This document shows positions 1 to 12,888 of a stretch of DNA of 64,000 nt, piece after piece. This DNA is from Harriotta raleighana (lineage: Eukaryota), in contig JBNZDD010013686.1 of assembly GCA_050575255.1 (NCBI GenBank), positions 2,756,293-2,820,292 on the forward strand, given 5' to 3'. How positions within the stretch are numbered: the first letter of the stretch is position 1; each line of letters opens with the position of its first letter. The position numbers are program-made.

Positions 1-3000
1 AACATCAATTTTTATTCCATTATTTGCTATTTGATCTCAGTTTTTTATAACCCACCACATTCTCTTTTCTAAACTCGTATTGGTATCCATAGATTTAAAC
101 AATATTATGGTAACCAATTTAGGTATAAAATACTTGTAATGTAACTCAGGTATTCTATGTTCAGGTTACCCTTTGCATGTTAGATTGTGAAGGAATCATA
201 ATATTTGGGGGAATTTTCAACCTGTTCTGTTTCAGCTGTCTTGTTTTTTTCATTTTTACCTGTGAAATATTGAAATCCAATTGATAATAGTGCCTAACCA
301 CATTGTTAAGACTTTCAAAACACTTCACAGGATATACCATGAAGTATGACTGTATTTTCCATAAAGCAATGTCCCACAAACAGTCATGGAGGGACTGACC
401 AATTTTATTTGTAGTGTGTAGGCCAAACACTGGGTATAAGCTCATTTTTCTATGTACTCAGCAGCAGAACCCTTGTCCTCTGTGACTTGGGTCTGCTCCT
501 ACATATCTTGCTAACAAGCCAGCCTGGGTGATCTGTAATCAGCAGTGCCTGTCTTGGGAGTACTTTAGATTCACTTGGTTCTGAAACTGCTAAGACTATC
601 ATATATGCGATTGACAACATTATTGGGATGTATCCCATAATATACAACAACAAGATTGCATTTATAGAGCACGTTTCACGTCGGAAGGACGTCCCAAGGC
701 GCTGGACAGTTGGTTTAAATATAAGCAATTGCCAGCAACTTCTACCATATTGGAGAAAAATATTCATGGTTATAGGATGATAGAAGTCTTTATTTGTGAT
801 ATTGTTTTACTCCGATCAATGATTATACATATTTAAGGCACCTGATAGATATATCAAATCATTCTTTAAACGATGATTTGCTGATAAACTAATAATTCCA
901 TGCTGTGTACTGATTTATCACAATACATAATTTTTTAACTTCTGTTCCAATTAATGAATAAATAGTTCCTTATTTCCTAGAATTAAAGCTATCACTGTCT
1001 CCACTGGAATCCATAAACACATCGTTAGTGGTTGTATACATATAATCGGGAGTCATGTCACTACTTAATTCATTAACAGAATAATCACTAAGAGCTGAAT
1101 AGAATCTAGTTCTGTTTGCATCTTCCTCGGGACGCACACTTTCTGAGGAAGTCGGATAACTTCCTTCATTAGTTTCTCTGCTAGTTTCACTTTCGTCTGA
1201 AGAACTGCCAGTTGCAGAACCAGTGCCTTCAAGTTCATCAGAAGTTATATTGACTGATAGTGGTCTGGTTCTTGATGTTGATGCAGGATAAAGAATTAAA
1301 GGTTGCTCTTGAAATGTTACCTCTCTTTCATCATCAAAACTATTTTTTCTTGGTTTAAAATTTGATGTGGAAATGGGTGATAGTGGTACCAATTGCTGTT
1401 CATGGGGTTCTCTGTAAATGAAAGATTGAGATATGGGCGACTGCGCTATAAAGTTACTGTTATATAAAAAAGTATCTGTTAAGGCATCCCCAGCTGTAGA
1501 AATGTTTCCTCTTAATCCATTCTGGGATTGTGGACTCACATGAGGGCTTACATTAACCGATAATGGCATTATCACTGGTAGTGATGTAGAATGAGCATCC
1601 ATATGATCTCTTTCCTCTTGTGCCAAATTCAGTCCAGTATCACTATGAAATGGTAAAGCTAAATGAGAAAATTGTTCATAGGAGGATGGTTGAATCAGAT
1701 GTTGTGAGAGTGAGCGAGATGATGAAGAGAATGCAGGGGGTGGAACAATTGGTAGTGGACTACCAATTAAATCCTCAGGTCTTGGGATCAACTCATTTTG
1801 AGATGATTTAATAAGCGATCTTGATGATCTTCTCTTTTTCGATTGACTTGGGTAATCCTCTTTTTTCCCTTTCGGTAATTTTGAATGGAATGAGGCTGAC
1901 GGAAACTTATGCTTTGATGAGAGAGGGAGCATTCGGTGTTTGGATGGTGAATAACTGGATGCCGATCGTCGCAACTGTGGTGATGAGTAGGATATTCGAT
2001 GTTTGGATGGGGATTGCGTTGGCTGTGATGTTTGATGTCTAGAAGTTGAATGGGTGGGTGTTGATCGTGGTTCATGCCTTGATGTTGAATGAATGGAGGA
2101 TGATAATGGATGTGATGAGAAAGAGGGTATTTGGCGTCTGGAGTGTGAATGAGCGGAAGATGAACGTGGTGGATGTGATGTGAAAGAGGGTGTTCGATGT
2201 TTAGATGTTGAATGAACAGATGGTAATCGTGTTTGATGTGTGGGTGGTGACTGAAGAGCTGTTGATAGATGTGACAACTTGGGCATTTCTGGAACAGAAT
2301 GTGAATAAGGGGATTGTGGTTGCTGTGGCATAGTAGACAGTTGTGGTGTGGAATGTGAATGAATGGATTGTGATGGCAATTCATGCACTGAATGAATGGA
2401 GGGTAACTGTGAATAGTGTGACAAGGGCATTGGAGGCATAACATGTGAATGAATGGATCGTGATTGAGATTGGTGTATTGTGGGCATTTGTGGCATAGAA
2501 TGCGAATGCATGGATTGTGGTTCAAATGATAATCTGGGATGTTTGTGCCTTGAGTGGGAATGAACAGATGGTGAGGGTAGATGTTCAAATGAGAATATAG
2601 GTGATACCTGCCTGGATTGAGAAGGAATGGATGATGCAGGTTGATGTGAAGATAATGAGTGACTATGTGATGAAAATGTTGGGGATGAAACAGCTGGCTG
2701 TGGGATTGTGGGAGATCGGTCATCTGAAGTATAGGCTGATCTTTCTCTCCAAACCGCAGAATGTGAACCAGCCACATCTGGATGACTTCTTGAGAATTGC
2801 CCAGGTGCCAGTGGAGTGAATAGATGAGTACTTCTACCGTCACCTTTAAATGGTAAACTAACTGATTTCGATCTGGCTCTTTGTGTTGACAGAAGATGTG
2901 ATGGGCTCTTTGATGGTGGTTGGGTGAATGATAATGATATGGGCACACGTCTTTTGTACCTTGCTGAATGACTTGATGGTGAAATATGGAGTAGACTTGC

Positions 3001-12000: not shown

Positions 12001-12888
12001 GATGTTTCAAGACGCTATCTCAAATGCAAATGCAAGGATTGTTATCATTATTTTCAGTATTGATAAGTAATACAGGGAAATAAAGACTTTGCACTAGTCT
12101 CTCACCACCCAGTGAATCAGCAACGTCTTCTTCAAATTCCACTATATCCTCATCCCCATCATAAAACTCAGGAGAAGATCTTGGGAATCCTGGAAAGAAT
12201 TAAATCGATGACAGGCGGTTGGTTAAGTTGGGTTATCTACATATTGGACAAATGAGTTTTTGTTTGTACACAAGACGTTTCTTAGAAGTGGAGGGCATCT
12301 CTCTCTCTCTCTATCTCTCTCTCAATCAATCTCTCAATCAATCTCTCTCTATCAATCTCTCCATCAATCTCTNAATCAATCTCTCAATCAATCTCTCCAT
12401 CAATCTCTCCCATCAATCTCTATCTGTATATCAAAANTCTCTCAATCAATCTCTCAATCAATCTCTCTCTATCAATCTCTCCATCAATCTCTCCCATCAA
12501 TCTCTATCTGTATATCAAAATACAACACGACCTACTTCTCCATGGGGAACCCACAAGAGGCTCGGCATTGGCTCTGTCGTGAATGTGTCCCGTGAACAGC
12601 AGCAGAAGGGTGGCAAGAAGCGGGTTACAAGTCATGGAAAATCATGGGAACAAGCCACAGCGGGCAGCCAGCTGGCGTGGGGGCCGCTATTGGGAAATGA
12701 GGAGCCTTGGGTGGTGGTGGGGGTGGGGGGGGTCACCAGCCCTTTGCCCCCAAAGCATCTCCTGCCCGAAGCGCCACTAGGCAACACCATTGTGACGCCC
12801 AGTCACCGAGGCTATTGTCCATCACTGACCTCACACTGATTCCCGTGTGCAGCCTTATCTCAACACACTCAGCTGCAATACACACACA

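What the first reader, a model, noticed from the sequence alone, without database searches (positions are those of the whole stretch)
970..12635. Unrecognised 1354-aa type-I membrane protein with a ~980-aa disordered cytoplasmic tail
Seen: 12 exons join through canonical, phase-matched splice sites into one ORF. Its order is signal peptide, acidic helical-looking ectodomain (sequons NKT, NMS, NRT; only 2 mature ectodomain Cys), TM helix at aa ~351-375, RAKEKEKC, then a low-complexity tail. The ORF track shows only the last exon and fragments of others. I recognise no Ig, LRR, EGF, kinase or other domain. A tail about three times longer than the ectodomain with no catalytic domain is unusual. 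Inference: a lineage-restricted or fast-evolving membrane scaffold, possibly a sperm/acrosomal protein.
Basis: partly seen in the sequence, partly recalled or inferred. Interest (0 to 1): 0.8.

Follow-up and report, generated by a model that had tools for sequence, protein, structure and literature searches.

The report
Cartilaginous-fish membrane protein, long disordered tail
This is a real gene for a single-pass membrane protein with a very long unstructured inner tail, found so far only in sharks, rays and chimaeras, already predicted but never studied in other species, and of unknown function.

Summary
The gene is real. On the minus strand, 11 GT-AG, phase-matched exons (12635 to 970) encode a signal peptide, a ~290-aa acidic ectodomain, one TM helix and a 972-aa single-exon tail that AlphaFold2 leaves wholly unstructured. 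My model gives 1320 aa, and the only homology-supported extra exon (11338-11208) is frame-broken in this assembly.

The protein is not unrecognised. It is the orthologue of a Callorhinchus milii RefSeq model (93% identical in the TM exon, 67.6% in the tail). It also matches 'uncharacterized' or 'mucin-like' models in catsharks, zebra shark, skate and electric ray. No member has a Pfam domain. A profile of the TM region searched against 1.84 billion representative proteins found 6 proteins, all cartilaginous-fish or skate-like.

Around the TM helix, 41 of 51 residues are invariant from chimaera to ray. The tail is only 26-29% identical to elasmobranch tails, with seven conserved short islands.

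Best reading: a cartilaginous-fish-restricted type I membrane scaffold. The anatomy is shown; the function is inferred. Nothing supports a sperm or acrosomal role. Interest is moderate. The joined protein was never assembled or searched.

The parts
12536..12635 (-). Exon 1: ATG at 12635-12633, signal-peptide-like N-terminus, donor GAA|gtaggt, ends in phase 1.
   Evidence: The best local alignments fall on the N-termini of catshark and skate models: P0002 residues 1-32 with 0 of 300 shuffles reaching the score, P0004 residues 5-32 with 3 of 300, P0006 residues 74-99 with 10 of 300. In P0007 the best alignment is elsewhere. Plain BLASTP against P0004 gave no support (E=19). The C. milii model lacks this exon.
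12106..12189 (-). Exon 2 (84 nt, phase 1-1), acidic N-terminus of the mature protein (FPRSSPEFYDGDED...).
   Evidence: tblastn with C. milii P0001, E=2.4e-12. Splice sites.
11208..11338 (-). Candidate exon 3' (131 nt), homologous to exon 3 of the C. milii model but not usable as it stands. Its two halves are in different frames around a TA/TG-rich stretch, and there is an in-frame TAA.
   Evidence: Two tblastn pieces, 11345-11301 and 11289-11251, each E=0.055. Sequence read. Its 3' end is part of a local duplication.
10699..10794 (-). Exon 4 (96 nt, phase 1-1): acidic helix NDPDWEAEEVEVIENVNKTIKEILERIENEC, with sequon NKT and Cys 1.
   Evidence: tblastn with P0001, E=3.9e-10, 74% identity..
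10082..10183 (-). Exon 5 (102 nt, phase 1-1), with sequon NMS.
   Evidence: tblastn with P0001, E=1.2e-9, 79% identity..
9868..9939 (-). Exon 6 (72 nt, phase 1-1), with Cys 2.
   Evidence: tblastn with P0001, E=2.8e-6..
9408..9539 (-). Exon 7 (132 nt, phase 1-1), charged helix ...DDDTIKNKLLELESRLLP.
   Evidence: tblastn with P0001, E=6.5e-8. Weak colinear match to elasmobranch 'DDDVVEERLDELE': 1, 10, 11 and 82 of 300 shuffles reach the score in the four targets.
8557..8673 (-). Exon 8 (117 nt, phase 1-1), acidic (NKFPEETVILETNEETFEE...).
   Evidence: tblastn with P0001, E=1.4e-12.. The acceptor is weak (tattattag).
7687..7776 (-). Exon 9 (90 nt, phase 1-1): sequon NRT and the conserved membrane-proximal helix TDEEVVQRSINELQ.
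   Evidence: An elasmobranch-only HMM gives E=1.5e-3 among 2158 ORFs. 0 of 300 shuffles reach the score in 4 of 4 targets.
6201..6281 (-). Exon 10 (81 nt, phase 1-1), acidic linker.
   Evidence: tblastn with P0001, E=0.045, 72% over 18 aa. Strong donor CAG|gtaaga. No elasmobranch support.
4973..5141 (-). Exon 11 (169 nt, phase 1 to 2): outer juxtamembrane SLRDMVEDL, TM helix LIAASLIAVFVILALIAMFYTVSFV, and inner RAKEKEK.
   Evidence: 93% identical to C. milii (E=2.4e-23). 80-95% identical to four elasmobranch proteins (E 1.5e-14 to 1.6e-17). Elasmobranch HMM E=6.2e-29.
970..3889 (-). Exon 12: 972 codons of Ser/Pro/His/Arg-rich cytoplasmic tail, plus the stop codon at 972-970.
   Evidence: (67.6% identity to C. 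milii). AlphaFold2 mean pLDDT 35.3.
3844..3888 (-). Conserved tail island 1: CPRITILESGTSDGA, directly after the membrane. A polybasic stretch follows (13 K+R in the first 50 tail residues).
3616..3693 (-). Conserved tail island 2: ...LPPPNIISRCPPDIPVC...
2713..2742 (-). Conserved tail island 3: RSAYTSDDRS.
1717..1770 (-). Conserved tail island 4: proline-rich SPLPIVPPPAFS.
   Evidence: S710-P718 invariant in 7 sequences.
1405..1458 (-). Conserved tail island 5: SPISQSFIYR.
   Evidence: S817-I824 invariant.
1138..1167 (-). Conserved tail island 6: EGSYPTSSES.
1054..1098 (-). Conserved tail island 7: SDYSVNELSSD.
   Evidence: S934 D935 Y936 S937 N939 E940 S943 D944 invariant.
789..794 (-). First AATAAA after the stop codon, about 176 nt downstream. 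Candidate polyadenylation signal.
   Evidence: Motif scan. Not otherwise tested.

Best explanation
An intact protein-coding gene for a type I single-pass membrane glycoprotein. It belongs to an unnamed family seen so far only in cartilaginous fishes: chimaera, sharks, skate and electric ray.

Shown:
- A signal peptide.
- An acidic, mostly unstructured ectodomain that carries a few short conserved helices.
- One TM helix which, with its flanks, is almost invariant across the family.
- A ~970-aa disordered Ser/Pro/His/Arg-rich tail, in which seven short islands are conserved in a sea of divergent, lineage-specific repeats.

Inferred mechanism:
- The invariant TM and juxtamembrane module docks the protein in the membrane, either to itself or to a conserved membrane partner.
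- The tail acts as a multivalent cytoplasmic docking platform. Candidate sites are the proline-rich LPPP and SPLPxVPPP motifs, the SDYS[IV]NE and SPISQSFI motifs, many phosphorylatable Ser, and a polybasic stretch next to the membrane.
- The variable acidic ectodomain is a spacer or ligand- or cation-binding stalk.

The window itself comes from a relative of Callorhinchus milii, not from that species' record and not from a human.
For: Gene model:
- 11 GT-AG exons with matching phases and no stops.
- The 992-codon open frame has a chance of about 1e-23.

Orthology:
- The C. milii protein P0001 maps colinearly on E2 and E4-E12.
- Four elasmobranch proteins map on E11 and E12, three of them also on E9 and one also on E7, weakly.
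- An elasmobranch-only HMM picks, out of 2158 window ORFs, the E11 ORF (6.2e-29), the E12 ORF (3.7e-7) and the E9 ORF (1.5e-3), in colinear order.

Restriction:
- The TM-region profile searched against 1,835,955,588 representatives found 6 proteins with E<=1e-3, all of them below 1e-30. Four are named cartilaginous-fish records; two are unnamed skate-like fragments.
- The C-terminal search found 4 of 3278 scored candidates, all elasmobranch or skate-like.
- Pfam gave 0 families for all exons and all 7 family proteins scanned.
- PDB sequences gave 0 hits, plus one hit at E=0.31.

Topology:
- Hydrophobic N-termini occur in the window's exon 1 and in 5 elasmobranch models. Each of 6 full proteins has exactly one internal hydrophobic segment.
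- The outer flank is net acidic and the inner flank net basic (and the sequence).

Structure:
- In the skate fragment, helices appear at the conserved blocks and at the TM helix (pLDDT 85-94). One more helix lies in its N-terminal part and one after its frame departs from the family. The rest is below 50.
- The tail has mean pLDDT 35.3, with no helix or strand elements.

Conservation pattern:
- 41 of 51 positions are invariant around the TM helix.
- 158 of 972 tail positions are conserved in at least 5 of 6 sequences, clustered in 7 islands. Tail identity is 26-29% to elasmobranchs.
Against: - No experiment or expression data bears on function. The scaffold role, the readers of the motifs and the TM partner are all inference from the anatomy.
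- The signal peptide was judged by hydropathy and position only. No SignalP or DeepTMHMM was available.
- Exon 1 has no BLAST-level homology (E=19), and its ATG has a weak context with an overlapping upstream ATG.
- The membrane-distal ectodomain exons E2, E4, E5, E6 and E10 are supported by the C. milii model only. Their matches to elasmobranchs are not above shuffles.
- Absence outside cartilaginous fishes rests on predicted-protein databases. No bony-fish, lamprey or other vertebrate genome DNA could be searched here.
- Self-association could not be tested.
Confidence: 0.5

Rival explanations
1. A transmembrane mucin or glycocalyx protein, as the NCBI names 'mucin-2-like' and 'mucin-17-like' suggest. 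On this reading the Ser/Thr/Pro-rich part would be a heavily glycosylated extracellular barrier.
For: Source names of P0005 and P0007. The tail is 21.3% Ser, 10.9% Pro and 7.3% Thr, with 12 N-x-S/T sequons. Shark ectodomains carry long tandem repeats.
Against: The Ser/Pro-rich part lies after the TM helix in a protein with an N-terminal signal peptide, so it should be cytoplasmic. There is no SEA or other mucin domain: Pfam gave 0 families. The ectodomain of this gene is acidic rather than Ser/Thr-rich. The names are most simply explained by low-complexity similarity.
Confidence: 0.08
2. A sperm or acrosomal membrane protein, evolving fast under reproductive selection.
For: Only a feature-space neighbour: the Afaf cluster at score 0.80 among many unrelated type I proteins. 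Divergence of the ectodomain and tail is fast.
Against: A score of 0.80 is below the tool's 0.9 threshold, under which a hit is only a lead. No Pfam Afaf or other match was found. The TM block has been invariant since the chimaera-elasmobranch split, which is not what a rapidly evolving reproductive protein shows there. No expression data could be seen.
Confidence: 0.07
3. A signalling precursor cut within or near the membrane. The released tail would go to the nucleus or to another compartment, like other single-pass proteins processed by intramembrane proteases.
For: The TM helix is invariant. A polybasic, NLS-like stretch follows it directly, with 13 K+R in tail residues 1-50. The tail is long and disordered, with conserved motifs.
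Against: No cleavage motif or protease relationship was tested or is testable here. Polybasic juxtamembrane stretches are common in uncleaved membrane proteins (general knowledge).
Confidence: 0.1
4. A very divergent orthologue of a named bony-vertebrate gene, so not lineage-restricted.
For: Protein databases and word-seeded searches can miss distant relatives. The outer ectodomain and tail evolve fast. No vertebrate genome DNA or synteny could be examined. No neighbouring gene was recognisable in the remaining 51 kb.
Against: An exhaustive HMMER profile search with the most conserved 190 positions found nothing outside the family. NCBI's pipeline found no named relative for six species (names). 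A block that is 80-95% conserved between chimaera and elasmobranchs would be expected to stay detectable.
Confidence: 0.12
5. A decaying or mis-assembled gene, or a chance chain of open frames.
For: The exon-3 homologue is frame-broken. The stretch matching 26 further residues of the C. milii model has three stops. A duplication flanked by single Ns lies in the same intron.
Against: The other 11 exons are intact and in phase. Skipping the broken exon keeps the frame. The 972-codon tail is open and 67.6% identical to C. milii without frame breaks.
Confidence: 0.03

Closest known systems
Callorhinchus milii XP_007892920.1, 'PREDICTED: putative GPI-anchored protein PB15E9.01c' (P0001, 1330 aa)
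   Same: Orthologue. It is colinear over E2 and E4-E12. Identity is 93% in the TM exon, 58-79% in the tblastn matches to the ectodomain exons and 67.6% over the 954-aa tail match. The tail islands are the same.
   Different: The model starts inside exon 2 and has no signal peptide. It contains 38 aa (exon 3) and 26 aa (before exon 9) whose counterparts in the window are frame-broken or carry stops. The name is misleading: there is no C-terminal hydrophobic GPI signal.
Elasmobranch models: Scyliorhinus canicula LOC119952384, S. torazame uncharacterized protein, Stegostoma tigrinum 'mucin-2-like', Amblyraja radiata LOC116979420, Narcine bancroftii 'mucin-17-like'
   Same: Same family. They share the signal peptide, the single TM helix, the nearly identical TM and juxtamembrane block, the TDEE.VQ.S.N.LQ helix before it, and the same seven tail islands in the same order.
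   Different: The part before the TM helix is about 520-1200 aa, swollen by tandem charged Pro/Glu/Val/Lys-rich repeats, against about 290 aa here. Tails are only 26-29% identical and carry other repeats. The membrane-distal exons are not detectably similar.
Syndecans and similar type I proteins with a variable disordered ectodomain and a conserved TM and cytoplasmic part (comparison from general knowledge)
   Same: What it works like: a signal peptide, an unstructured ectodomain that varies between lineages, and a TM and juxtamembrane region conserved far better than the rest.
   Different: No match to the Pfam Syndecan family was found. A syndecan-domain cluster appears only at Atlas score 0.80. 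The tail is about 970 aa, against a few dozen residues in syndecans (recalled).
Transmembrane mucins (MUC17-type)
   Same: Single-pass, low-complexity, repeat-rich. The names were given by annotation pipelines.
   Different: No SEA domain or other Pfam match. The Ser/Pro-rich region is on the cytoplasmic side by topology. The ectodomain is acidic, not Ser/Thr-rich.

Membership tests
Unnamed cartilaginous-fish family (XP_007892920.1 / LOC119952384 / LOC116979420) | Nearly invariant block QSLRDM[IV]EDLIAASLIAVFVILALIAMFYTVSFVR[AS]KEKEK.P.ITI[IL]ESG | tested here: met
   The window's E11 is 93% identical to C. milii and 80-95% to four elasmobranchs. HMM E=6.2e-29. 41 of 51 positions are invariant in A1.
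Unnamed cartilaginous-fish family (XP_007892920.1 / LOC119952384 / LOC116979420) | Colinear long tail with conserved islands (LPPP..CP.P, RSAY.SD, SPLP.VPPP, SPISQSFI, PTSS.S, SDYS.NE..SD) | tested here: met
   Seven islands were found in the window's tail in the family order.
Unnamed cartilaginous-fish family (XP_007892920.1 / LOC119952384 / LOC116979420) | N-terminal signal peptide and exactly one TM helix | tested here: met
   Hydropathy of exon 1 and of 5 elasmobranch N-termini; one internal hydrophobic segment per protein. Positional alignment of exon 1. No dedicated predictor was available.
Transmembrane mucins | SEA domain and Pro/Thr/Ser tandem repeats in the extracellular part | tested here: not met
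   Pfam gave 0 families. The ectodomain has D+E 62 of 250 residues and no Ser/Thr-rich repeats.
GPI-anchored proteins (source name of the C. milii record) | C-terminal hydrophobic GPI-attachment signal and no cytoplasmic domain | tested here: not met
   The C-terminus is hydrophilic (...SGDSDSFNSRK). The tail maximum hydropathy is 0.77. The TM helix is internal, with 972 aa after it.
Syndecans | Match to the Pfam Syndecan domain (PF01034: conserved TM and short cytoplasmic domain) | tested here: not met
   No Pfam match at E<=1. Atlas score 0.80 only.
Acrosomal membrane proteins (Afaf/EQTN type) | Match to Pfam Afaf (PF15339) | tested here: not met
   No Pfam match. Atlas score 0.80, below the 0.9 threshold.
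Acrosomal membrane proteins (Afaf/EQTN type) | Testis or spermatid expression and acrosomal location | not testable with these tools
   No expression data were available.

The most novel reading that the evidence does not exclude
An ancient gene, at least as old as the chimaera-elasmobranch split, that exists only in cartilaginous fishes. Either it was born on their stem or it was lost in bony vertebrates. It encodes a membrane scaffold whose TM and juxtamembrane module has been frozen while ectodomain and tail were rebuilt by lineage-specific repeats. That would point to a cartilaginous-fish-specific membrane complex with an as yet unknown, equally conserved partner.
Probability: 0.45. Interest if true: 0.55.

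Novelty: new variant of a known kind. Interest (0 to 1): 0.35.

Why it matters
If the restriction holds, this is one of the few old, well-conserved protein families private to cartilaginous fishes. Its frozen TM block gives a concrete handle (pull-down, TM swap) for finding a lineage-specific membrane complex.

More practically, the current database names for its relatives are artefacts of low complexity: 'GPI-anchored protein PB15E9.01c', 'mucin-2-like' and 'mucin-17-like'. The C. milii model also lacks the signal-peptide exon.

Otherwise it is one more uncharacterised single-pass protein, with no clue to tissue or process.

Tried and rejected
- **ORF 11828-11682 as exon 3.** It has a phase-1 acceptor (ttttag), but only a weak donor and no match to any family protein. 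It would also add a third Cys. Rejected.
- **A long exon 4 starting at 10876.** Rejected because the C. milii match starts at 10792, behind a phase-1 acceptor at 10794.
None is credible.
- **A 75-nt version of exon 3' (11282-11208).** It is in phase but has a poor acceptor. Left open.
- **BLASTP of exon 1 against the S. canicula protein.** No hit at the N-terminus (E=19).
- **Atlas look-alikes.** The best score was 0.85, to unnamed clusters, for the C. milii N-terminal 440 aa. There was no usable hit for the skate C-terminus.
- **PDB sequence searches.** Nothing was found.
- **Fold search.** Not run, because both models are far too low in confidence to give meaningful matches (pTM 0.22 and 0.21).
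- **The listing of cluster members for P0008, P0009 and P0001.** The sources and names of the two unnamed fragments therefore stay unknown.
- **Neighbouring genes for synteny.** 163 ORFs of 62 aa or more between 13 and 64 kb gave only one sub-threshold reverse-transcriptase match.
- **Literature.** There were 0 papers for the three accession or LOC identifiers and 0 for the C. milii product name. Two broader searches listed nothing on this gene (search listings only). In PMC11979771 I saw only the passages returned by a term search: 'uncharacterized', 'mucin' and 'single-pass' occur 0 times in its main text. Its supplements are closed.
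Full report
**What is there**

The finding lies on the minus strand. The largest piece is a stop-to-stop frame of 992 codons at 970..3948. From the local base composition, such a frame has a chance of about 1e-23. Reading the sequence, scanning splice sites and mapping the closest database protein gives 11 exons:

- E1 12635-12536
- E2 12189-12106
- E4 10794-10699
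- E5 10183-10082
- E6 9939-9868
- E7 9539-9408
- E8 8673-8557
- E9 7776-7687
- E10 6281-6201
- E11 5141-4973
- E12 3889-970

All ten introns are GT-AG. All phases match: phase 1 throughout the ectodomain, and phase 2 between E11 and E12. No exon or split codon holds a stop. The sum is 3963 nt, which is 1320 codons plus the stop. The four single N positions inside the locus (10951, 11058, 12373, 12437) are all intronic and were left untouched.

All searches were exon by exon or used public orthologue records. Lengths and residue numbers of the whole protein are arithmetic on exon lengths. I do not take this contig for human, because its closest relatives are cartilaginous-fish records.

**Check of the observation**

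- The ATG at 12635 is followed by a hydrophobic, signal-like stretch.
- The ectodomain is acidic: D+E 62 against K+R 31 in 250 full codons of E2 and E4-E10, with two Cys.
- The sequons NKT, NMS and NRT are present.
- There is one strongly hydrophobic segment, LIAASLIAVFVILALIAMF, at hydropathy 3.02. RAKEKEK follows the TM helix and C follows it across the last intron.
- The tail has 972 codons and no second hydrophobic segment.

The count of 12 exons and 1354 aa was not reproducible. The missing 34 codons do not correspond to any credible single exon.

The only extra exon with homology support is 11338-11208, which matches exon 3 of the C. milii model. Its two halves match in different frames around a TA/TG-rich stretch. 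Read from its phase-1 acceptor, it runs into a TAA. Its length of 131 nt would break the frame. Its 3' end is also part of a local duplication bordered by single Ns. So an assembly problem, a skipped exon and a lost exon cannot be told apart here. Leaving it out keeps the frame.

**Relatives**

- The tail exon alone found one protein among 8000 scored candidates. It is Callorhinchus milii XP_007892920.1, 1330 aa, 67% identical over the whole query.
- That protein maps colinearly on E2 and E4-E12. The TM exon is 93% identical, the tblastn matches to the ectodomain exons are 58-79% identical, and the tail is 67.6% identical.
- Its N-terminal 440 residues found 7 proteins among 7999 scored candidates. 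These are itself, two Scyliorhinus torazame isoforms, S. canicula LOC119952384, Stegostoma tigrinum 'mucin-2-like', Amblyraja radiata LOC116979420 and Narcine bancroftii 'mucin-17-like'.
- A profile of the 190 best-conserved positions around the TM helix (A1) was scored by HMMER against all 1,835,955,588 representative proteins. Six had E<=1e-3, and all six were below 1e-30. Four are the named records above. The other two are unnamed fragments (505 and 1068 aa) that read as two halves of a skate gene. The larger is 91% identical to the Amblyraja record in its C-terminal part.
- A search with the conserved C-terminal 309 residues of that fragment found 4 of 3278 scored candidates, all elasmobranch or skate-like.
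- An HMM built from elasmobranch proteins only, run over all 2158 window ORFs of 20 aa or more, picked the E11 ORF (6.2e-29), the E12 ORF (3.7e-7) and the E9 ORF (1.5e-3), in colinear order. The E7 ORF was not significant (E=3.4).
- Pfam gave no family for any exon, or for any of the 7 family proteins scanned. In one search three sub-threshold hits, E 0.026-0.16, were all far below their cut-offs.
- PDB sequences gave nothing. Atlas look-alikes stayed below the level the tool calls meaningful.

**Anatomy**

*N-terminus.* Hydrophobic N-termini are present in the window's E1 and in five elasmobranch models. Each of six full proteins has exactly one internal hydrophobic segment. E1 aligns best to the very N-terminus of the two catshark proteins and to the internal start of the skate model. 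The numbers of shuffles reaching the score were 0, 3 and 10 of 300. In the ray protein the best alignment lies elsewhere. Plain BLASTP gave nothing.

*TM block.* With an acidic outer flank (SLRDMVEDL) and a basic inner flank (VRAKEKEKCPR), the type I orientation is well founded, although no dedicated predictor was available. Around the TM helix, 41 of 51 positions are invariant in chimaera, two sharks, a skate and an electric ray.

*Ectodomain.* AlphaFold2 on the skate fragment, with a 7-sequence alignment, gives no globular fold (mean pLDDT 47, pTM 0.22). Four isolated helices lie at the conserved ectodomain blocks, and the TM helix is confident (pLDDT 85-94). Two more helices lie outside the family part, one in the N-terminal part and one after the fragment's frame departs from the family. 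In sharks and rays the ectodomain is swollen to roughly 520-1200 aa by charged tandem repeats.

*Conservation of the ectodomain exons.* The membrane-distal exons E2, E4, E5, E6 and E10 are not detectably similar to elasmobranch sequences. E9 is clearly similar, with 0 of 300 shuffles reaching the score in 4 of 4 targets. E7 and E8 are weakly similar.

*Tail.* The window's tail is 21.3% Ser, 10.9% Pro, 7.0% Arg and 6.0% His. It has a His/Ser/Pro-rich repeat zone around residues 400-660. AlphaFold2 gives mean pLDDT 35.3, with 931 of 972 residues below 50 and no helix or strand elements.

Against elasmobranch tails it is 26-29% identical. Even so, 158 of 972 positions are conserved in at least 5 of 6 sequences. 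They cluster in seven islands:

1. CPRITILESG, next to the membrane
2. LPPP..CPP..PVC
3. RSAY.SDD
4. SPLP.VPPP
5. SPISQSFI
6. PTSS.S
7. SDYS.NE..SD

**How it most likely works**

Shown: a secreted-pathway, single-pass protein with an unstructured acidic outside, a frozen TM and juxtamembrane module, and a long disordered inside that keeps short linear motifs.

Inferred: the frozen module holds the protein in a specific membrane assembly, either with itself or with an equally conserved partner. The tail is a multivalent docking platform, offering proline-rich sites, Tyr- and Ser-based sites, and a polybasic membrane-proximal stretch. The ectodomain is a spacer or a ligand- or cation-binding stalk whose length is free to vary. 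I give the gene model and family assignment above 0.9, the topology about 0.85 and the scaffold mechanism about 0.4.

Rivals are set out separately: a true mucin with the Ser/Pro part outside, a sperm protein, a cleaved signalling precursor, a hidden orthologue of a named gene, and a decaying gene. None has positive evidence beyond composition or names.

**Comparison with what is known**

It works like the class of type I proteins with a variable disordered ectodomain and a conserved TM and cytoplasmic part, of which syndecans are the textbook case (from general knowledge). It fails the membership tests for syndecans, transmembrane mucins, GPI-anchored proteins and Afaf-type acrosomal proteins. 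It is a member of an unnamed family that annotation pipelines have predicted in six other cartilaginous fishes under uninformative or misleading names.

I found no paper on it. There were 0 papers for the identifiers and the product name. Broader searches listed nothing relevant (search listings only). The catshark resource paper PMC11979771 does not mention it in the passages I could query.

**What stayed open**

- No vertebrate genome DNA, synteny or RNA-seq could be examined.
- No neighbouring gene was recognisable in the other 51 kb. 163 ORFs were scanned and gave one sub-threshold reverse-transcriptase hit.
- Cluster membership of the two unnamed fragments could not be read.
- The self-association test never ran because the queue was full.
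- The closed collections (metagenome and viral contigs) were not used.

**Verdict**

It is already predicted elsewhere but uncharacterised. It is restricted, as far as protein databases show, to cartilaginous fishes. Its most notable feature is the invariant TM block set against a rapidly remodelled rest. Interest is moderate (0.35).

Noticed in passing
window 10853-11225: Local duplication in the intron before E4. Positions 10853-10950 equal 11059-11156 (98 nt, 100%), and 10953-11057 resembles 11121-11225 (97%). Single Ns sit exactly at the joints (10951, 11058). The upper copy overlaps the 3' end and donor of the frame-broken exon 3'. This may be a true tandem duplication or an assembly artefact.
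   Followed up: partly
window 12297-12521: Compound microsatellite (12-14-nt units, 84-nt higher-order period, about 2.7 copies) filling much of intron 1. It holds two single Ns.
   Followed up: no
window 4130-4400 (-), 7160-7410 (-), 45800-46080 (+): Three copies of a roughly 250-nt tRNA-derived SINE (mean column identity 77%). Two lie in introns of the gene, in the sense orientation. Two of the three reach Rfam's tRNA gathering score.
   Followed up: yes
window 7777-7861 (-): The stretch directly upstream of E9 matches 26 further residues of the C. milii model (aa 243-268) but carries three stop codons here. Either the C. milii exon is longer or its model reads into an intron.
   Followed up: partly
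window 12633-12646 (-): An upstream ATG at 12646 opens a 6-codon out-of-frame reading frame that overlaps the main ATG at 12635. Both ATGs lack a purine at -3. A CCAAT motif and a GC-rich stretch (0.62 in 12601-12800) lie just upstream.
   Followed up: no
window 1788-3023 (-): A second open frame of 411 codons lies in another frame of the tail exon. It is most simply a by-product of the repetitive, stop-poor composition. It has no match in any search made.
   Followed up: no
window 18042-18656 (-) and 59438-60243 (+): Retroelement remnants. A 205-codon frame reads like the C-terminal part of a LINE ORF2 (resemblance recalled; Pfam gave no family). A reverse-transcriptase fragment also appears, with RVT_1 at 21 bits, below the 29.6 cut-off.
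   Followed up: partly
window 13000-64000: No recognisable protein-coding gene lies in the 51 kb upstream of this gene. 163 ORFs of 62 aa or more gave no Pfam family at E<=0.001 except the reverse-transcriptase fragment. Short exons would have been missed.
   Followed up: partly
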